A DNA stretch of 48,047 nt from a virus. The stretch lies in UHGV virus genome UHGV-1377581; one strand, written 5' to 3'. The position numbers were made by a program, and so were the translations under genes. Below the pieces are notes generated by a model. It had not been told where the DNA came from, did not search any database, and saw only the letters and a list, made by a program, of their open reading frames with translations. Positions within the stretch are counted from its first letter, which is position 1, and each line of letters starts with the position of its first letter. Shown piece after piece: positions 4,969 to 43,085 of the stretch.

Positions 4969-5201
4969 TCGTCACCGTAAATGCAAAAACCTTCGGCCAT
5001 TTGCTCATACATGGCCACACTTTCCAGGCCGTACCCGGCGCGAAAATAAATCTCACCGACCACACCATCAAGGCCATTATCTGAAGGGTTCGCCATGTAG
5101 TCGGCCATGCACAGGCGAGAAAGGTTAACCAGGTGGCGCGATACAACTTGCGCTTTTGCTGGCACGATCTTGATGGTGTCTGCAATGGTTTTGGTTTTCA
5201 T
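4965..5201 (-). CDS. hypothetical protein
   Basis: ORF preceded by a cassette element and the leader CCAATCAGGAGC. Confidence 0.55.
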   Translation of the reverse strand: MKTKTIADTIKIVPAKAQVVSRHLVNLSRLCMADYMANPSDNGLDGVVGEIYFRAGYGLESVAMYEQMAEGFCIYGDE

Positions 5202-5505: not shown

Positions 5506-6237
5506 TCAGATCCCACGTTTGCGCATACGCTTTTTAGCTAATGACGGGCAAATCTCGCTTACCGGAATGTAAAGCGTCTTTTGCTCCTCGCCCGGCTTGA
5601 GTTTGCGCATGATGAAAATCACGCTGCCCTTGTTGTTGTTGTCGACTGGTTTACCGCTTAGGCCGTTGATGAAGGCCAGGAGACCGGATCGGCTTAGTTG
5701 CGTTCCGTCTTCATCCTCCGTGACGTCTGCGACAATCCAAATGATCTCAGCCGCTGCCTTCTGTGCGTCGCGGAACCACGCCGTAGAGTTGTCGCCGGGA
5801 AGCAAAATATCGATCTGGTTGTCATGCTCCATCTGCTCAATGGCTTTCAGCACGAAGGGATCCGGGAACGAGTAAGGCGGGTTAAGCCATACGTGCTTAT
5901 TTTTCCCCCACCAGCGCTTGAGACAATCGGTCTTTTCGTCGTAAAACTTCCGGCAGACGGTGTTGCTTTCTTCGGCGGCGGCGTCAAGATCGTAAGGGCC
6001 ATAACGCTCTTCCATGTATGCGATCAGGCTGCGATCGGTCGCCCACTTATCGCGCACGATATCTGGCGTTTTGCTCCCGGCGTATCGGTTGCCTGTTACC
6101 TGGTAAAACTTGTCTGGCCTGACAGCCTGATAGTGTCCGCCAGTAGCAAGGGCATTGCCAATAAACGTTTCGCGCTCCAATTGCTCAAACGTGATGAATG
6201 CGTCACGAGTGTCTTTGTCTGTGATATCTTTTGCCAT
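5506..6237 (-). CDS. dam: DNA N6-adenine methyltransferase (phage Dam family)
   Basis: NPPY motif (WLNPPYSFPDPF). Typical phage Dam length. Confidence 0.85.
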   Translation of the reverse strand: MAKDITDKDTRDAFITFEQLERETFIGNALATGGHYQAVRPDKFYQVTGNRYAGSKTPDIVRDKWATDRSLIAYMEERYGPYDLDAAAEESNTVCRKFYDEKTDCLKRWWGKNKHVWLNPPYSFPDPFVLKAIEQMEHDNQIDILLPGDNSTAWFRDAQKAAAEIIWIVADVTEDEDGTQLSRSGLLAFINGLSGKPVDNNNKGSVIFIMRKLKPGEEQKTLYIPVSEICPSLAKKRMRKRGI

Positions 6238-6597: not shown

Positions 6598-6999
6598 GAT
6601 GGCATCGCAGAAAGCGATCTTGAATTGCTCGAAGCCATAGGCCACGGCGGCGAATCCGCCGCGACGGCGAACGGCAGCAAGGAATTCCCTTTGCTCCTTG
6701 CTCACTGGTGACGCCTGCGCCTTACCCTGGCGCTTTAGCTCGATGGCCGCGAACGGGTATTTGCCGCCGAACCCAATCAGGATCAGAATGTCGCTAACGC
6801 CCTTCAGCAACCCCATTTGATGATCGATAACCGCGCTCGCCTTGTGCTTGCTGCCTTCATTGACTGTATGCCAGAACAGATAATCAGGGTATTCGTGCCG
6901 CAGCCACGAAACGCTATTCATCTGATCGATTTTCTCAAGCGGGCAAGCCTTTACAGGCCCGCCGTAGTATTCGAGATAATCACCTTTATCAGTAATCAC
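6592..6999 (-). CDS. VRR-NUC domain nuclease
   Basis: PD-(D/E)XK-type VRR-NUC signature region (ILILIGFGGKYPFAAIELKRQGK). GTG start overlapping the helicase stop. Confidence 0.55.
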   Translation of the reverse strand: MITDKGDYLEYYGGPVKACPLEKIDQMNSVSWLRHEYPDYLFWHTVNEGSKHKASAVIDHQMGLLKGVSDILILIGFGGKYPFAAIELKRQGKAQASPVSKEQREFLAAVRRRGGFAAVAYGFEQFKIAFCDAIK

Positions 7000-9032
7000 T
7001 ATTCGTCTCCAAAATCTTTGCGTGAAATAATATCTTCCTTCTTACCGTTAACGCGATGCGTTACGCGCTTCGGCGCTCGGAAGTAATGCGCATTCTCAAG
7101 GATTTTTCGCGCATTTTTCATCCCGCCCAACTTGCCGCGCATTACCGCGTCGTCAACGTGCTGGAAGACTGCCTTTTGCCGCCACAACTTGCCGCAAATC
7201 TTATTCTCTGATTCCGGGAAGAACTTTTCCCTTGCGGTGAATCGCTCGCCGTCATGGTTCAGTAGCACGTAATTGAAGATGATCCCGGACTGATTGCGAG
7301 TCAAGCCGATATCGAACCCGACAACATCATACCAGTCATTCTGCGTGTAGTGCTTCCCGGTGAGATTGTCGTTGGGATCTTTAAGCTGCACCCCGCAGCA
7401 TCTGCACTGGCGAGCAACAATATCGTTTTCAGCGTAACACCCCTTTACCTTAATCTTCCCTGTTCGCGGGTCTTTCTGGTCTTCGCAGCGCTGCGAGATC
7501 CAGAAGTATTCGCAACGATTGCCGTTGCTGTCTTTGTGGATGCATCGGCGGGCGTACTCGCTATTTTCTCCCTTGCATACCGGGCAAATTTTCGGGCCGT
7601 TCTTGCTGCTCTTGCGTCTTTGGTATTGTGCCTGCTCAAGAATCGGATCGAAATATAGCTGGCCCAAATCGTCCATAGTCCCGGCGAAGTCCCAAACTAA
7701 ATGGTCTTCCTTAACCCACGAGTAAGGCGGCTGTTTTTGCCAGTCTTTTAACAGTCGCATACCGCGCCCCAAAAGCTGAATAAGCAACGTAAGCGATCCG
7801 ATCTTGCGCAATATCACCGAAAAATCCCAAAACGGAACGTTAACGCCAGTGGTTAGGGCCATCACCTGGAAGATGTATTTAATCTCCCCGCGATTCGCCT
7901 TATCCAAAATTTCGCCGCGTTTCTTTGAGTTGGTCTTCTCGGTGATGATCGCGTATGTTGCGTCCGGCGGTAAGTAGCTTGCCGCTTCCTTGCAATGCCG
8001 CTGGCCAGCGCAAGTAATAAGAACGCCGTTTCGGGTTTTCGCACGCTCAACGACCTTTTGCATAATCAGCTTCGTCATTTCGCCGGATTCATGGATTTTC
8101 TTTTCCATCTTGCGCAAGTCTTCAGCGCTAAAATCCTGCGTACCGTCCTGACTGGAACCGTGGAACTCTGACAGGTCATACCCTAACCCATCCGCCTCGG
8201 TGTCACCGAAGATGGTGGGAACTACCGAACCGAACTCGACAAGATAGTTTGTGTTAATGTCGGTGATCTGCTCGCGCCAGAATCCCGGCTGCGTCTTGTC
8301 TTCCTGCAAGATGGGAACCACCCCGCGAAACTCCGACCCCGTATAACCGACGATGCGAAGTTCTCGCCCTGTCTTCTCAAGGCACCTCCGCATTAACTCA
8401 CAAATGACGATGGTGTACTGCGTGCGACCGCCGCCGAATTCTACGTCGTCGAATTTTTCGTCGTATGGGTGGTCGGCATCGACCAGTTCCCCGTTCACGC
8501 GATACGGCTTATCCTTCGGTCTGCTCATGTACTCGAACGATTCATTGTTGGCGATCGCTTCCGCCAGATCTTGCCAGTCAACCTGGTGGCATTCGTCAAT
8601 TGCCAGAACTGAAGGCACGTAGTCGCCAAGCATTTTAAACAGGCCATTAACCACCGTCCCTTCAGATCCGACGACGATCGGGAAGTATGCCGCCTTTGTG
8701 CCTAACCCGGCGCAATAAACGGAGTTGGGAACATCGAGGTTACTGATCTCCTCGGAATCCTGCTTCACGATCTCGGCCTGGCGAGCAAGAACCATCATGG
8801 GTAAGTTCATTGCCTTGCACTGCGCCGCGAGCATGGCGATCATGATGGTTTTCCCGGCGGAAACCGAAGCCTTAATGTAAAAAGGATGTTCATATTTTGC
8901 GATCCGCTTCGCGGTCTCAATATACGCAACCGCCTGATACGGGTAAGGAACGATATTTCCTACGGTGAACCGCTTTTGTATTAGCGGGATCTTGTCTGCG
9001 TAGGCTTCAATTTGTTGTTCAATTGTGAGCAT
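6999..9032 (-). CDS. SNF2/DEAD-like ATP-dependent DNA helicase
   Basis: Walker A (SAGKT), DExH (AIDECH), helicase C-terminal motifs and a Cys4 cluster. Start placed at MLTIEQ (SD AGGA), because the longer ORF to 9101 would run through its own promoter element. Confidence 0.75.
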   Translation of the reverse strand: MLTIEQQIEAYADKIPLIQKRFTVGNIVPYPYQAVAYIETAKRIAKYEHPFYIKASVSAGKTIMIAMLAAQCKAMNLPMMVLARQAEIVKQDSEEISNLDVPNSVYCAGLGTKAAYFPIVVGSEGTVVNGLFKMLGDYVPSVLAIDECHQVDWQDLAEAIANNESFEYMSRPKDKPYRVNGELVDADHPYDEKFDDVEFGGGRTQYTIVICELMRRCLEKTGRELRIVGYTGSEFRGVVPILQEDKTQPGFWREQITDINTNYLVEFGSVVPTIFGDTEADGLGYDLSEFHGSSQDGTQDFSAEDLRKMEKKIHESGEMTKLIMQKVVERAKTRNGVLITCAGQRHCKEAASYLPPDATYAIITEKTNSKKRGEILDKANRGEIKYIFQVMALTTGVNVPFWDFSVILRKIGSLTLLIQLLGRGMRLLKDWQKQPPYSWVKEDHLVWDFAGTMDDLGQLYFDPILEQAQYQRRKSSKNGPKICPVCKGENSEYARRCIHKDSNGNRCEYFWISQRCEDQKDPRTGKIKVKGCYAENDIVARQCRCCGVQLKDPNDNLTGKHYTQNDWYDVVGFDIGLTRNQSGIIFNYVLLNHDGERFTAREKFFPESENKICGKLWRQKAVFQHVDDAVMRGKLGGMKNARKILENAHYFRAPKRVTHRVNGKKEDIISRKDFGDE

Positions 9033-9112
9033 GGGCAATCCTAATTTGTCATTCGCATAGTTGCGTGTATAATACAGTGAACATTTTATCATGTTTAACA
9101 AAAAATGCTATG
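9033..9112 (-). promoter_or_regulatory. intergenic cassette E3 (TAGCATTTTTTGTTAAAC, hairpin AACAT/ATGTT, TATTAT) driving the helicase
   Basis: Same architecture. 21-bp spacer. Confidence 0.45.
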
Positions 9113-9123
9113 AGGGTTAAATT

Positions 9124-9525
9124 ATGGAACAAATGGCAAAGGTTGATAAGCGAACCTTGAACGGCAATAACGGAACATCGCGCGGGAAAGATAAGAAGAA
9201 ACGTAAGCGACCGACTGGTTACTACGTGCTGAAGGATGAGGTTCGCGCCGGGTTGACTGCGCGGATGGAGCTGGTTATTGATGCCTTCGGTGGCATCGCT
9301 GGAACGGCAAAAGAGTTGGGAGTTAGTATCCAGGTTGTTCAGCAGTGGCGTAAGCGCGGCATGATCTCAGCCGATGGCGCTTATCTCGTACATAAGAGCT
9401 ACCGCCGGAACAATTGCAAAGGTTTCCGCGCCTCATTCTGCCGACCAGATTTAAGATTTGACAGCAACGGCAAGCCAGTGACGCGCCGATGCGACCGCCG
9501 GGAAATGCTACGCGTAGTCCGATAG
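9124..9525 (+). CDS. Cro/YdaS-like HTH DNA-binding protein
   Basis: HTH segment TAKELGVSIQVVQQWRKRGMIS. Divergent from the helicase. Confidence 0.5.
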   Translation: MEQMAKVDKRTLNGNNGTSRGKDKKKRKRPTGYYVLKDEVRAGLTARMELVIDAFGGIAGTAKELGVSIQVVQQWRKRGMISADGAYLVHKSYRRNNCKGFRASFCRPDLRFDSNGKPVTRRCDRREMLRVVR

Positions 9526-9600
9526 CACAATTTGTCTAAACACTAAACGCCTGCCGGGTTATCATTCTCGTGTAGGCGTTTTTTATTTGGAGGTAACGAC
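9523..9600 (+). promoter_or_regulatory. cassette E4 overlapping a terminator (TAGCACAATTTGTCTA, 22-bp spacer, TATCAT inside hairpin AACGCCT...AGGCGTT plus T6)
   Basis: The stop TAG of the Cro-like gene is in the palindrome. Hairpin plus U-tract immediately before the primase RBS GGAGGT. Confidence 0.55.
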
Positions 9601-10560
9601 GTGGATTTTTACGATGAAAAAGAGGTTTTGCCGTACATGGCTGGTATGTGGCGCGAAGCGTTGCAGAACATTTGCGGCATCCACTCTCGATACTTCAACG
9701 GCAAGCACCAGGACTGCCCGAACTGCGGAGGCAAAGACCGATTCCGCTGGACTGACAAGTTAGAAACGCGCGGCGACGGCGGCGCATACTGTGGCGGCTG
9801 CGGTGCCGATAAGGGGATCGGATGGTTAATGAAGTTGAGCGGCGAGCCGTATAGCGAGTGCATCAACATTCTTGGGCGATACTTGGGCAAAGTTCCGCAA
9901 GAATACGTGGTCAAGAGAAACAAGCAGGTAGCTCGTGATAACGGGTATGACTACGGAAAGATGGCAGATCATGAAAGAGTGCTGGCAGTTTTAAACAGAA
10001 CGGAGGCCGTCGATAGCACGCCTGTAACGCTCTATGAGGGCATTGAAAATGAGCATATCAAATCATATCAGGTTGGCGTAAAAACTAACGAGAACGGCAG
10101 ACAGGAGCTAATTCACGCGCTACCGATGCAACTCGTGCATGAAGATGGGCTGGATGATGAGTATTGCAATATCCTGTTCATTGATGAAGAAGGTAGGGAG
10201 AAGATGCTAGCTGGAGATCTGACCTTCGGATCGGTGATAGTGACCAATCAGAGCGACGACGGTAACGGGCCGATTTACCTTGCTCGATCCTGGATTGAGG
10301 CGATGCACTTCAATATTGCCAGTTCGTTCAAGTGCGACGTTTGGGCCTGCATCATACCTTCAAACGTCGAGATCGTGGCGTACAGGTATAAAGGCAGGGG
10401 CGGAGAAGGTAAGCGAGAAATGCGGGTAGTTTGCCGTCGTGGAGATCGGGATATGCTGGCGGCTGCCGACGATAGGGATCTCAAGGTTATCGTTCCGAAC
10501 GGCGACAACTTCAAGCTCGGCTTTGAGCGTAAGTTATACAAGGCATCATCTCTTCTCTGA
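9601..10560 (+). CDS. DNA primase-like protein with N-terminal zinc-binding motif
   Basis: CPNCGG...CGGCG zinc ribbon. Position next to the helicase. GTG start with a strong SD. Confidence 0.5.
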   Translation: MDFYDEKEVLPYMAGMWREALQNICGIHSRYFNGKHQDCPNCGGKDRFRWTDKLETRGDGGAYCGGCGADKGIGWLMKLSGEPYSECINILGRYLGKVPQEYVVKRNKQVARDNGYDYGKMADHERVLAVLNRTEAVDSTPVTLYEGIENEHIKSYQVGVKTNENGRQELIHALPMQLVHEDGLDDEYCNILFIDEEGREKMLAGDLTFGSVIVTNQSDDGNGPIYLARSWIEAMHFNIASSFKCDVWACIIPSNVEIVAYRYKGRGGEGKREMRVVCRRGDRDMLAAADDRDLKVIVPNGDNFKLGFERKLYKASSLL

Positions 10561-10580
10561 TTAAATATTGACCAGAATTT

Positions 10581-10616
10581 AGGTAAGATTGAGAAAATCA
10601 GTCTTACCTTTTTTTA
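10581..10616 (+). terminator. rho-independent terminator after the primase (GGTAAGATTGA...TCAGTCTTACC plus T7)
   Basis: Hairpin plus T-tract. The stem is itself built from the GTAAGA motif. Confidence 0.55.
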
Positions 10617-10617
10617 T

Positions 10618-10980
10618 GCCTGAAATTCAGTGGCTTGCAACTGGTCGAACCACTTTAGGTAAGATTTAGTAAGATGAATCTTACGTAAATTTCGCGCAAA
10701 ATTTAACCAATTAACCGCAATATATAGATAGTAAGTATATGATAAATAACAATATTATTATTATCACTCTGTCTGTATCTATCAATCTTGGTAAGATTTC
10801 TCCGGGGTACGTGTCTTTTTTCGCTGGATTTCGCGCAAGATTTTTCATGGATATTTACCTATAGGGATCTTACTATCTTACCGATTTGCATTAACTCGAT
10901 GAAATATATAGGAAAAATCACGTAAGATGCATCTTACTAAATCTTACGTAAATTTCGCTCATTTTTTGACCAGTTGGCGA
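10618..10980. promoter_or_regulatory. regulatory region with perfect palindromes GTAAGATGAATCTTAC (about 10669) and GTAAGATGCATCTTAC (about 10922), a direct repeat ATCTTACGTAAATTTCGC, and an AT-rich module (10719-10808)
   Basis: Multiple operator-like inverted repeats. The AT-rich 90-bp module recurs inverted at 42331-42420. Confidence 0.55.
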
Positions 10981-11056
10981 ATAGCACTTTTTGCCTTGCA
11001 CCTGGAATCGTGATGCGTATACTTAACTCAACGAAACCACAAACGGAGTGATACCA
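10981..11056 (+). promoter_or_regulatory. cassette E5 (ATAGCACTTTTTGCCTTG, TATACT, leader CTCAACGAAACC) driving the recombination operon
   Basis: Box1/box2 match without an upstream gene. Confidence 0.5.
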
Positions 11057-12103
11057 ATGGCTGAAGCAATTTTTAAGGCATACACCAACGCGGAATTATC
11101 CAACGATGATTACCACGATCCTAACTCCTGGTGCGCCAGATACGTTAGCGGCTCAAGCCTCGGCGAGATTTACGCAACCTCCCCGGCCCACTGGAAATAC
11201 AAGGAGCGAGAAGAAACAGCCGCGCTTTCATTCGGCACTTGCTCCCATACCTGCATGCTTGAGACGTCCAAATTTAATGGCGAGTACCTGCGAGCGACCG
11301 CGCCGGGCGACGTTAAGGATCTGATTACTTCGAAGTCGGCATTGTCTGCGAAATTGAAAGCGTGTGGCCTGATTGGGACGTCCAACAAGGACTACCCCGA
11401 ATTGCTGGAAATGGCATACCGCGCCGGGATTGATGTTAACGTGTGGTGGGCGATCGAACTCTGCGACGAAAGCGCCGCCATCAACTCAGGCCGGAAGCTG
11501 GTCAAGGATTCTGATTTCGATGCGGTCGTGCAAATGCGAAACGTGATGCTGGCTAACCCACGGCACGCGGCGTGCATTGAATCGGATACAGCGCAACGCG
11601 AGTTGTCAATCTTCGGCGAAATTTTCGGCGTCCCGGTAAAGGTTCGGCTCGATCATGTTGACGTCGTGTCAGATCCCGAACTCATCAAAGAGTGGGGGTT
11701 TAACCCGGATGAAGTTTTCGAAGTGGTGGTGATTACCGACTACAAAACTACTCAGACCTCTAAACCGGATGACTTTGGGCGACTGGCGTTCAACCTGGGA
11801 TACTATCTCAAAATGGCATTGCAGCGCGATCTGTTCGTTAAGACGTACAACGAAAGACGCCCGGTGGTTGTCCGCCTGCTGACTCAGGAGAAAAAATCAC
11901 CGTTCGCGCCTCTCGCGTTCACGTTAACGGATCAGCAGATTGAGATCGGGCGGAAGCAGTATCAAAGCGTGATTCACCAGTACGCCGAATGCGTCAAGCA
12001 TGACGTTTGGCCGTCATACGAATCGAACGCAGCGGAAGTGAAGTTGCCCACGCCGCAATTCGTGAAATACATGTTCCCGGAAGTATACGGCACAAATAGC
12101 TAA
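11057..12103 (+). CDS. RecE/lambda-exo-like PD-(D/E)XK exonuclease
   Basis: D...ITDYKT nuclease core. First gene of the exo-ERF-SSB module. ATG with SD GGAGTG (the ORF track starts at GTG 11048). Confidence 0.55.
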   Translation: MAEAIFKAYTNAELSNDDYHDPNSWCARYVSGSSLGEIYATSPAHWKYKEREETAALSFGTCSHTCMLETSKFNGEYLRATAPGDVKDLITSKSALSAKLKACGLIGTSNKDYPELLEMAYRAGIDVNVWWAIELCDESAAINSGRKLVKDSDFDAVVQMRNVMLANPRHAACIESDTAQRELSIFGEIFGVPVKVRLDHVDVVSDPELIKEWGFNPDEVFEVVVITDYKTTQTSKPDDFGRLAFNLGYYLKMALQRDLFVKTYNERRPVVVRLLTQEKKSPFAPLAFTLTDQQIEIGRKQYQSVIHQYAECVKHDVWPSYESNAAEVKLPTPQFVKYMFPEVYGTNS

Positions 12104-42155: not shown

Positions 42156-42718
42156 ACTTACGGCGTTTGGTAATGTTTCGGAAGGTGATAATACAGGCCG
42201 CAGGCCGCGCCGTCAAAGGGTTTCGGCGTGTTTGGTAAGATTTGCTGTCATCCACTATATATCCCTATATACATTTTTTCGCGGCGGAACATCTAAAAAT
42301 TATGGCTTGCGCAAGGAGAATCCATAACCTCCCCGGAGAAATCTTACCAAACATATATAAAGATAAAGAGTAATAATAATAATATTATTATTTATCATAT
42401 ACTTACTATCTATATATGGGCTTATATTGGTCACTTTTTGTGCAACTTTCTGGTAAGATTTTTCCTCCCACACATTCCCACACGCCCTAAATGTTGGGGA
42501 AACACACGCACCGTTTTGGCAGGATTTGAACGGCGAATTATGTGCATAGTGCATACATTTATGCAATTCGTTGCAAATCATGAAACACTCCAAAAATCGT
42601 TGCACAAAATGAAACAATCAAAAGCAATCATGATTCGTCAAAACTAATCACCAGGGAATCAGGTGCAATCACCATCTATTCCGCTATTCCGAATCGGTGG
42701 AATAATCAGCAATCGCAG
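42156..42718. promoter_or_regulatory. divergent regulatory region: GGTAAGAT motifs (about 42232, 42341, 42451), inverted AT-rich module (42331-42420), TGCATA/ATGAAACA/TTGCAA repeat cluster (42500-42660)
   Basis: Direct reading. 650-bp non-coding stretch between divergent operons. Confidence 0.55.
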
Positions 42719-42803
42719 GAATAGCATTTTTTGTTAAAACCCACCCGATCGGCTTTGCTATGATGACTTCAACGAAACGAATTGAGCCAAAGGGGCTAAA
42801 GCT
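42719..42803 (+). promoter_or_regulatory. cassette E13 (ATAGCATTTTTTGTTAAAAC, hairpin CCGATCGG, TATGAT, leader CAACGAAAC)
   Basis: 22-bp spacer. Drives the rightward operon. Confidence 0.55.
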
Positions 42804-43085
42804 ATGAAACTTCAACGCGAATCAATCAACCTGGGCAGCGAGTATAACGGCAAGTGGAACTTCGTTATCATGGATAGCGACGCCGACAAGATCGAAGCGG
42901 TTGAGGAAGCGTTATGCGAAATGGCCACTGGCTTCTCTGTCGGCGGCGAAGATAAAACCTGGGGCGACTACTGCGACCAATGCCCTTGCTATGACGATGG
43001 TTATGGCTCCGGCTTCTGGATTCCGGTCGAAGATGTTCCGGCTTTCAAAGAGGCGTACAAGGCAGCGAAGAAAGCAGTGAAATAA
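42804..43085 (+). CDS. hypothetical acidic protein with CxxCxC cluster
   Basis: ORF with SD AAAGGGG. Acidic composition. Confidence 0.55.
   Translation: MKLQRESINLGSEYNGKWNFVIMDSDADKIEAVEEALCEMATGFSVGGEDKTWGDYCDQCPCYDDGYGSGFWIPVEDVPAFKEAYKAAKKAVK

What the first reader, a model, noticed from the sequence alone, without database searches (positions are those of the whole stretch)
10561..11047. 487-bp non-coding control region with perfect 16-bp palindromes GTAAGAT-NN-ATCTTAC and repeated ATCTTACGTAAATTTCGC units
Seen in the sequence:
- A terminator built from GGTAAGA/TCTTACC (10581-10616).
- GTAAGATGAATCTTAC at about 10669 and GTAAGATGCATCTTAC at about 10922, both perfect palindromes.
- Each is followed by the direct repeat ATCTTACGTAAATTTCGC.
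- Extra half-sites ATCTTACTATCTTACC (about 10868) and TTGGTAAGATTT (about 10790).
- Two TTTCGCGCAA(A/G)ATTT boxes.
- A 90-bp AT-rich module (10719-10808), and finally cassette E5.

This density of dyad-symmetric sites looks like an operator array for a dimeric regulator controlling the exo-ERF-SSB-fibre operon, and possibly a replication origin.
Basis: seen in the sequence. Interest (0 to 1): 0.75.

Follow-up and report, generated by a model that had tools for sequence, protein, structure and literature searches.

The report
Twin iteron-plus-AT-rich regions, candidate origin
The gap between the primase and exonuclease genes of this T1-like Klebsiella phage holds a conserved array of GTAAGAT protein-binding repeats around the most easily melted DNA in the genome. 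It is one of two such copies per genome and is most likely a replication origin, which has not been mapped for this phage family in anything I could read, though a role in gene control cannot be excluded.

Summary
The window is a Webervirus (T1-like Klebsiella phage) genome, and 10561-11056 is the primase|exonuclease VIII intergenic region. GTAAGAT occurs 16 times in the window (3.9 expected), 10 of them within 10583-10947. These sites are conserved blocks in 36 distinct Webervirus sequences.

New points:
- The 130-bp core unit (site, box, AT-rich tract, site) is duplicated, inverted, at 42331-42460.
- The two AT tracts are the two least stable duplex segments of the genome. The same holds in T1, Rtp, tunus and K62PH164C2.
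- The two copies evolve in concert within each genome.
- The flanking repeat is lineage-specific: GTAAGAT here, ATCCTCCGCAA, GTAACA or TCCGCGGAA elsewhere.
- Half-site spacing varies (N1-N3), many sites are solitary or about 10 bp apart, and none overlaps the exoVIII promoter.

A classical dimer operator is therefore poorly supported. The best reading (about 0.4) is one of a pair of iteron-plus-unwinding-element replication origins. The main rival (about 0.35) is a transcription-control nucleoprotein region. The binding protein is unidentified: the adjacent Cro-like HTH protein is a candidate, but covariation does not support it.

The parts
10581..10616 (+). Intrinsic terminator of the primase gene. 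Its stem is built from one GTAAGAT site (10583-10589) and an imperfect inverted copy (GTCTTAC, 10602-10608), followed by T7.
   Evidence: -16.3 kcal/mol, z = -4.9. Conserved in Weberviruses. In L136 the equivalent iteron palindrome is followed by T8.
10659..10684 (.). Iteron cluster I. Three GTAAGAT sites: 10659 (+), 10669 (+) and 10678 (-). The first two are 10 bp apart. The last two form the perfect 16-bp palindrome 10669-10684.
   Evidence: Conserved block.
10687..10704 (+). Box 1, AAATTTCGCGCAAAATTT. It is near-palindromic and lies between the iterons and the AT core.
   Evidence: Related boxes occupy the same position in K62PH164C2, L135, L136, L042 and tunus.
10719..10790 (+). AT-rich core: 79% AT, 15 TA steps, no A or T tract of 4 or more. 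It contains TATATAGATAG and (ATT)4. It is the second least stable 60-bp duplex in the genome and the candidate DNA-unwinding element.
10791..10797 (+). Solitary GTAAGAT site (TTGGTAAGATTT) abutting the 3' edge of the AT core. The same position holds an inverted ATCCTCCG site in L042/L043.
10826..10843 (+). Box 2, GGATTTCGCGCAAGATTT.
10867..10881 (-). Two direct GTAAGAT sites 8 bp apart (ATCTTACTATCTTAC on the + strand).
   Evidence: The same pair is present in K62PH164C2, L135 and L136.
10922..10947 (.). Iteron cluster II. Sites at 10922 (+), 10931 (-) and 10941 (-). It contains the perfect palindrome 10922-10937 plus a direct copy 10 bp on. It mirrors cluster I.
   Evidence: I1, D1, D2. It is the most conserved block of the region.
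10949..10973 (+). Box 3 (AAATTTCGCTCATTTTTTGACC), a partial copy of box 1.
   Evidence: D2.
10979..10999 (+).
   Evidence: 11 copies with up to 2 mismatches against 1.4 expected; shared geometry. Described for TLS, T1 and Rtp in PMC11447400.
10996..11023 (+). exoVIII operon promoter: TTGCAC, 16-bp spacer, TATACT. The -10 lies 38 nt after the start of ATAGCAC, as at the other repeat-type promoters.
   Evidence: Conserved.
42331..42460 (-). Second, inverted copy of the unit. It is 81% identical to 10677-10808, with a 51-bp AT-rich stretch 96% identical. It contains the least stable 60-bp duplex in the genome (42354-42413). It lies in the 648-bp divergent early intergenic region. GTAAGAT sites are at 42453 (+), 42341 (-) and 42235 (+).
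9124..9525 (+). Candidate, unproven, site-binding protein. A 133-aa Cro-like HTH protein encoded directly upstream of primase, separated from it by a terminator-like hairpin.

Best explanation
The region is one of two paralogous cis-acting assembly sites in the phage genome, and most likely a replication origin.

Shown:
- Ten copies of a 7-bp repeat (GTAAGAT), in both orientations and often about one helical turn apart, flank a roughly 70-bp TA-step-rich tract.
- That tract and its twin at 42.4 kb are the easiest DNA to melt in the genome.

Inferred:
- A phage-encoded sequence-specific protein, not yet identified, coats the repeats as monomers or loosely coupled pairs.
- The candidate is the Cro-like HTH protein encoded directly upstream of primase.
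- The resulting complex strains and opens the AT tract.
- The adjacent P4-alpha-type primase and the SF2 helicase then start DNA synthesis using host Pol III.

Separate components:
- The primase terminator upstream shields the site from read-through transcription.
- The exoVIII promoter downstream is a separate, ordinary ATAGCAC-repeat promoter.
For: 1. Motif enrichment and clustering, and purifying selection on the sites but not on the spacers.
2. In 5 of 5 Drexlerviridae genomes from different lineages (this window, T1, K62PH164C2, tunus, Rtp), the two least stable 60-bp duplexes (z = 4.6-5.8, next best at most 3.75) are exactly these two regions: one upstream of recE and one in the divergent early region.
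3. The core is rich in TA steps and has no A-tracts. It looks meltable rather than like an UP element or curved DNA. It carries a conserved (ATT)n run.
4. Positions are kept while the repeat sequence changes between lineages. L042/L043 have 8 copies of ATCCTCCGCAA, four of them tandem at a 10-11 bp period. T1 has GTGTAACA. Rtp has TCCGCGGAA, with 6 of 6 genomic copies in these regions. This is the pattern of iteron and initiator specificity.
5. Within each genome the two copies are each other's best match, so both must fit the same lineage-specific factor.
6. The region lies inside the replication and recombination gene block. The primase has the P4-alpha/T7-type zinc ribbon PF08273. P4 itself uses two distant cis sites (ori and crr) that share short iterons (from my own knowledge).
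7. Variable half-site spacing and solitary sites fit iterons better than dimer operators.
8. The exoVIII promoter does not need the array, because about 10 sibling promoters lack it.
9. The two Drexlerviridae genome papers I could read report looking for an origin and finding none (TLS, PMC11447400; SU57, PMC7718038).
Against: - There is no experimental evidence of any kind.
- Wherever the module's polarity could be read (T1, Rtp, K62PH164C2 and this window; ambiguous in tunus), both copies point towards the operon downstream, and module A stays attached to recE when gene order changes. That is what a promoter-linked element would do.
- In region B, and in K62PH164C2 region B, GGTAAG/TTACC sites abut and follow a canonical sigma-70 promoter. 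That looks regulatory.
- There are no DnaA boxes and no IHF sites, and GATC is depleted rather than enriched.
- The initiator is unidentified. The Cro-like protein's recognition helix differs at 4-5 of 6 positions among phages that share GTAAGAT.
- Tunus shows no clear iteron.
- Two origins in a 48-kb genome need explaining.
Confidence: 0.4

Rival explanations
1. Transcription-control region. The GTAAGAT sites are operator or enhancer sites for a phage regulator, for example the Cro-like gp at 9124-9525. With the flexible AT tract it forms a looped or wrapped complex that times expression of the exoVIII-erf-ssb operon and of the early operon at 42.1 kb, without any role in replication.
For: - A Cro-fold HTH protein matched in 831 phage records is encoded 1 kb upstream.
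- Both copies of the unit point towards the operon downstream in each lineage where the polarity could be read.
- In region B the sites flank the TTGACG-17-TATTAT promoter. In K62PH164C2 region B they abut the -35 and fill the leader.
- Two perfect palindromes suit a dimer.
- The regulator's recognition helix is the fastest-evolving part of the protein, and the repeats are lineage-specific.
Against: - No site overlaps the exoVIII promoter. The array spans roughly -80 to -450 relative to the start.
- The promoter is of the common ATAGCAC-repeat type, which works elsewhere without the array.
- Half-site spacing varies from N1 to N3 for the same motif.
- The helix sequence does not track the motif.
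- This reading does not explain why the AT tracts are the two least stable segments in five genomes, or why they carry conserved internal sequence.
- No conserved sigma-70 promoter was found inside the module.
Confidence: 0.35
2. Single-strand signals. The inverted GTAAGAT pairs act as hairpins in RNA or in unwound DNA. They would serve as terminators or attenuators, or as primase or primosome entry (ssi-like) signals on opposite strands either side of the AT tract.
For: - One pair is a bona fide terminator here and in L136.
- Clusters I and II fold with z of about -4, and alternative pairings are possible.
- Loop length varies from N1 to N3, which hairpins tolerate.
- Clusters I and II are mirror images, 67 nt and 75% complementary (I1).
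- The primase gene is adjacent.
Against: - About half the sites have no partner.
- Only the first hairpin is followed by a T-run.
- Direct repeats at 8-10 bp spacing suggest recognition of duplex DNA.
- The sequence between the sites is not conserved as an RNA would be. There is no Rfam match and no stable fold downstream of the module.
Confidence: 0.1
3. Gene for a small protein or small RNA. This would be the 41-codon ORF 10739-10864, annotated 'hypothetical protein' in some GenBank records, or a transcript starting in the AT module.
For: - The ORF is open at 41 codons in 26 of 36 Weberviruses.
- It is annotated in VAC5 and others.
- TTGATC-18-TATAAT matches sit at the edge of the AT core in K62PH164C2 and L135.
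Against: - By eye, amino-acid replacements between Webervirus groups (about 17 of 41) are nearly as numerous as the nucleotide differences expected at about 85% identity. Some copies are cut to 17-29 codons.
- The reading frame differs in copy B, and the ORF is absent in K62PH164C2.
- There is no Shine-Dalgarno sequence.
- There is no Rfam hit and no stable structure.
- The promoter match is not conserved in Webervirus.
Confidence: 0.04
4. Packaging signal. The repeats would be small-terminase binding sites of a pac region.
For: In T1 the second module lies about 200 bp from base 1 of the record, which I take to be the pac end. Pac sites of P1 and SPP1 have repeated boxes around bent DNA (from my own knowledge).
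Against: - Region A holds most of the sites (10 against 3) yet lies far from the region homologous to that T1 end.
- Region A is duplicated and is conserved next to recE in all lineages.
- As I recall, T1 is described as packaging from a single pac site.
Confidence: 0.03

Closest known systems
Satellite phage P4 ori / crr with the alpha primase-helicase
   Same: - Two distant cis sites share the same short repeat (an octamer in P4, a heptamer here) in both orientations, with an AT-rich tract at the origin.
- The phage primase is of the P4-alpha zinc-ribbon type (PF08273; T1 record note).
   Different: - Here the primase is only 319 aa. It lacks alpha's helicase and C-terminal origin-binding domains.
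- The neighbouring DNA-binding protein has a Cro fold, not a winged helix.
- Both sites here carry an AT core, whereas as I recall crr does not.
- Function is untested.
Iteron-plus-AT-rich phage origins (lambda ori with O protein; SPP1 oriL/oriR with G38P)
   Same: - Clustered initiator-type repeats lie next to an unwinding element.
- Specificity differs between related phages.
- SPP1 also has two origins with the same boxes.
   Different: - Lambda's iterons are 19-bp, tandem, and lie inside the initiator gene.
- Here the sites are 7-bp, mixed in orientation, on both sides of the AT core, and intergenic.
- No O-like or G38P-like initiator gene was recognised.
Cro/cI operator arrays of lambdoid phages (OR/OL)
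   Same: - Perfect short palindromes occur in multiple copies at two distant loci.
- A Cro-fold protein is encoded nearby.
   Different: - Operators have fixed half-site spacing and overlap promoters.
- Here spacing varies from N1 to N3, many sites are half-sites, and the exoVIII promoter is not overlapped.
T1-like 21-nt intergenic direct repeat aaATAGCACnnnTTGnTAAAA (TLS paper, PMC11447400)
   Same: The 3' end of the finding (10979-10999) is one of 11 copies in this genome. It has the same orientation and the same distance to the gene.
   Different: It is a different element from the GTAAGAT array. It is pan-family and is found at many genes. Its own function is still unknown.

Membership tests
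Iteron-type replication origin | Multiple copies of a short repeat clustered in a non-coding region | tested here: met
   10 GTAAGAT within 365 bp; 16 in the genome against 3.9 expected. The sites are conserved.
Iteron-type replication origin | Adjacent AT-rich DNA-unwinding element | tested here: met
   10721-10780 and 42354-42413 are the two least stable 60-bp duplexes (z = 4.7 and 5.7). The same holds in 4 other genomes.
Iteron-type replication origin | Repeats phased near the helical period | tested here: inconclusive
   Spacings here are 10, 10 and 8 bp. L042 has four tandem copies at 10-11 bp. Other sites are irregularly spaced.
Iteron-type replication origin | A cognate initiator protein that binds the repeats | tested here: inconclusive
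   A Cro-like HTH protein is encoded next to primase. Its variable helix does not track the iteron type. Binding is not testable here.
Iteron-type replication origin | Replication starts there, or the region supports replication in cis | not testable with these tools
   Needs marker-frequency analysis, 2-D gels or a plasmid amplification assay.
oriC-like origin | DnaA boxes, IHF site, GATC clustering | tested here: not met
   No DnaA box with up to 1 mismatch and no IHF consensus in region A. There is 1 GATC in 487 bp against 6 per kb genome-wide.
Cro/cI-type operator array | Dyad sites with fixed half-site spacing | tested here: not met
   N2 here; N3 and N1 in K62PH164C2; N3 and N2 in L135 and L136. 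Five of the ten sites here have no close (2-bp) inverted partner; one of those five pairs only with an imperfect copy in the terminator stem.
Cro/cI-type operator array | Sites overlap the regulated promoter | tested here: not met
   In region A the nearest site ends at 10947 and the -35-like hexamer starts at 10996. In region B the sites flank but do not cover the promoter.
Cro/cI-type operator array | HTH regulator of Cro/cI fold encoded by the phage | tested here: met
P4 ori/crr system | Alpha-type protein with a C-terminal origin-binding domain | tested here: not met
   The primase is 319 aa, and the only Pfam domain found is the zinc ribbon. The Toprim core was not tested. No winged-helix origin-binding domain was found.
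T1-like 21-nt direct repeat promoters | ATAGCAC...TTG motif, co-oriented with the gene, about 70-90 nt before the start codon | tested here: met
   ATAGCAC starts at 10981, 76 nt before the ATG at 11057. There are 11 copies against 1.4 expected, all with the same geometry.
Intrinsic terminator | GC-containing hairpin followed by a U-run, downstream of a gene | tested here: met
   12-bp stem, 5-nt loop, U7, -16.3 kcal/mol, 21 nt after the primase stop.
Known RNA family (Rfam) | Covariance-model match | tested here: not met
   No hit at gathering threshold in the window. No hit at E <= 1 in 10400-11200.

The most novel reading that the evidence does not exclude
Every Drexlerviridae (T1-family) genome carries a pair of concertedly evolving iteron-plus-unwinding-element origins, one upstream of recE and one in the divergent early region. 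The short repeat has been swapped several times between lineages. This would locate the T1 replication origin, which the two genome papers I could read (TLS and SU57) looked for and did not find. It would also point to an unrecognised initiator.
Probability: 0.35. Interest if true: 0.65.

Novelty: new member of a known kind. Interest (0 to 1): 0.5.

Why it matters
T1-like phages are classic models and are now common therapy candidates against Klebsiella. The two Drexlerviridae genome papers I could read (TLS and SU57) report finding no origin, and the TLS paper lists the function of the intergenic repeats as an open question.

The twin modules give two small, precisely bounded targets for marker-frequency, footprinting and deletion experiments. 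If they are origins, they offer:
- a handle for engineering replication or host range;
- a natural case of iteron-specificity switching.

If they are regulatory, they define the control point of the early and recombination operons.

They are also recombination hot spots. The window's own mosaic junction lies in the conserved cluster II.

Tried and rejected
- **Rfam**: the whole window at gathering threshold and the region at E <= 1 gave nothing.
- **Folding downstream of both modules**: no better than shuffled sequence. A small RNA is not supported.
- **Small ORF 10739-10864**: usually open, but not under protein-level selection and not kept in copy B.
- **DnaA and IHF boxes, GATC clustering**: absent.
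- **GC skew**: follows transcription direction only.
- **A sigma-70 promoter conserved inside the module**: good matches only in K62PH164C2 and L135, none in Webervirus.
- **Covariation of the Cro-like protein's recognition helix with repeat type**: suggestive with 5 genomes. It failed when L135 and L136, which use GTAAGAT but have different helices, were added.
- **Sliding identity of primase, regulator and exoVIII between motif classes**: no discriminating segment.
- **Proteins shared only by GTAAGAT-class genomes** (DUF5417 and two PHROGs of unknown function): no DNA-binding annotation.
- **The three GTAAGAT copies outside the two regions** (19808, 26795, 26845): these lie at gene ends and look like chance.
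- **Literature searches** for Webervirus or Drexlerviridae origins, transcription start sites and transcriptomes: no description of this array. The Rtp genome paper could not be read and the T1 genome paper was not read either.

Full report
**Context.** The window is a complete or near-complete Webervirus genome (T1-like Klebsiella siphovirus, Drexlerviridae). A 1-kb query around the finding matches 345 phage records at 80-96% identity. Relatives annotate the flanks as DNA primase and exonuclease VIII. Local gene order is:
- SF2 helicase (6999-9033, - strand);
- 133-aa 'transcriptional regulator' (9124-9525);
- primase (9601-10560, PF08273 zinc ribbon);
- the finding;
- exoVIII (from the ATG at 11057), Erf, an ORF at the SSB position, and a tail fibre.

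**Observation.**
- GTAAGAT occurs 16 times in 48 kb against 3.9 +/- 1.8 in shuffles, and 10 copies lie in 10583-10947.
- The hairpin 10581-10609 plus U7 is a strong intrinsic terminator (-16.3 kcal/mol, z = -4.9).
- In 36 distinct Webervirus sequences the GTAAGAT sites, the boxes, the ATAGCAC repeat and the -10 hexamer are invariant blocks. The spacers between them drift. Across 33 Webervirus loci read through this region the heptamer count stays at 8-10.
- 'Cassette E5' is the published T1-like 21-nt direct repeat, whose function is unknown (PMC11447400). The window has 11 copies against 1.4 expected, all co-oriented with a gene, with a TATTAT/TATACT -10 about 38 nt after the start of ATAGCAC. 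The exoVIII promoter is therefore an ordinary member of that class.

- The unit 10677-10808 (site, box, AT core, site) is repeated, inverted, at 42460-42331. Identity is 81% overall and 96% over a 51-bp AT-rich stretch. This second copy lies in the 648-bp divergent early intergenic region, and three more GTAAGAT copies lie there.
- The two AT cores are the two most AT-rich 70-bp windows and the two least stable 60-bp duplexes of the genome (z = 5.7 and 4.7, next best 3.4). They are rich in TA steps and contain no A-tracts.
- The same holds in T1, K62PH164C2, tunus and Rtp. In each, the two least stable windows are one upstream of recE and one in the divergent early region.
- Within each genome the two copies are each other's best match. 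Local alignment scores are 81, 57, 44, 81 and 51, against at most 49 between genomes. The copies therefore evolve in concert.

**Lineage-specific repeats on a conserved scaffold.**
- K62PH164C2 and the metagenomic loci L135 and L136 keep the primase-module-exoVIII order and use GGTAAGAT. K62PH164C2 has 11 GTAAGAT genome-wide, 10 of them in its two regions; L135 and L136 have 8-9 copies in the region read.
- L042 and L043 keep the same order, terminator, box, AT core and ATAGCAC-type repeat. In them the repeat is ATCCTCCGCAA: 8 copies, four tandem at a 10-11 bp period, and an inverted copy exactly where Webervirus has TTGGTAAGAT.
- T1 has GTGTAACA/TGTTAC. Rtp has TCCGCGGAA, with 6 of 6 genomic copies in these regions, plus GTTACGC. 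Tunus shows no clear repeat.
- The AT core itself carries conserved sequence (TATATAGATA, (ATT)n, ACTCT) in most of the lineages examined.

**Operator reading.**
- The half-sites of the palindrome are 2 bp apart here. They are 3 and 1 bp apart in K62PH164C2, and 3 and 2 bp apart in L135 and L136.
- Half of the sites are solitary or are direct repeats 8-10 bp apart.
- The nearest site ends 49 bp upstream of the exoVIII -35-like hexamer.
- Sibling ATAGCAC promoters lack any such array.
- These points argue against a rigid dimer operator acting on this promoter. In region B, however, GGTAAG/TTACC-type sites flank a canonical promoter (TTGACG-17-TATTAT). In K62PH164C2 they abut the -35 and fill the leader. 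A regulatory role is therefore not excluded.

**Who binds.**
- It is matched in 831 phage records and always sits directly upstream of primase.
- Its recognition helix (residues 68-74) is the most variable part of the family, with entropy 2.1 bits against 0.7-0.9 elsewhere. That would suit lineage-specific targets, and L042 has both the most divergent helix and the most divergent repeat.
- Against this, phages that share GTAAGAT carry helices IQVVQQ, YQALQN, HQLIQQ and YQVLES. Covariation therefore does not support the assignment.
- Proteins restricted to GTAAGAT-class genomes have no DNA-binding annotation. The binder is unknown.

**Other readings tested.**
- There is no Rfam match and no stable RNA downstream of the modules.
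- The 41-codon ORF annotated in some records is usually open, but it changes mostly non-synonymously and is not kept in copy B.
- There are no DnaA or IHF sites, and GATC is depleted.
- No record among those listed annotates an origin here.
- The two genome papers I could read state that no origin was found in TLS or SU57.

**Verdict.**
- The array is real, conserved and part of a family-wide twin element.
- I favour a replication-origin function (about 0.4): iterons plus an unwinding element, comparable to P4 ori/crr or SPP1 oriL/oriR.
- A transcription-control nucleoprotein region is the main rival (about 0.35).
- Hairpin or single-strand signals are a minor third option.
- All functional steps are inferred. 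Only the anatomy and its conservation are shown.

Noticed in passing
window 10900-11000: Mosaic junction. Up to about 10900 the window is 93-100% identical (mostly 96-99%) to one Webervirus group (e.g. L041). From about 10900 onward it is mostly 96-100% identical to another group (e.g. L008, L010), which is only 76-87% identical over 10400-10899. The crossover falls in the conserved iteron cluster II / ATAGCAC repeat.
   Followed up: partly
window, 11 sites (e.g. 6583, 38019, 41123, 41547 on the - strand; 10981, 42721, 43962 on the + strand): The ATAGCACTTTTTG(C/T)TAAAAC repeats sit at a fixed distance, with the -10 (TATTAT) about 38 nt after the start of the repeat and no usable -35. The TTTGCTAAA part resembles the T4 MotA box TTTGCTTTA as I recall it. 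This suggests activator-dependent middle or late promoters.
   Followed up: partly
window 9526-9600: Between the regulator gene and primase there is an ATAGCAC-type repeat and then a terminator-like hairpin (ACGCCT...AGGCGT plus a T-run). T1 annotates a terminator at the same place. It may be an attenuator controlling primase dosage.
   Followed up: no
window 42480-42720: Repeated GATTG/TGATTGC and TGCAAC motifs here resemble the first 60-130 nt of the T1 record, which I take to be the pac end. This may be the Webervirus pac region, about 100-300 bp from module B.
   Followed up: no
window 42804-43085: The first gene of the rightward early operon encodes an acidic 93-aa DUF5417 protein. It is 84% identical to its K62PH164C2 homologue, which is unusually high, and is absent from T1 and tunus.
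   Followed up: partly
window 10561-11047 and 42156-42803: GATC is depleted, with 1 site in each region, although the genome averages 6 per kb and encodes a Dam methylase (5506-6237).
   Followed up: no
window 10739-10864: A 41-codon ORF across the AT core is annotated 'hypothetical protein' in several GenBank Webervirus records. It shows no protein-level constraint and is probably a mis-annotation.
   Followed up: yes
L003 2375-2420; L135 about 5092-5135: In K62PH164C2 and L135 a conserved 10-bp-stem hairpin (GGTATATTCC...GGAATATACC) plus a TATTTAT tail lies downstream of the AT core, after a TTGATC-18-TATAAT match. This could be a short transcript in those lineages. It is not present in Webervirus.
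   Followed up: no
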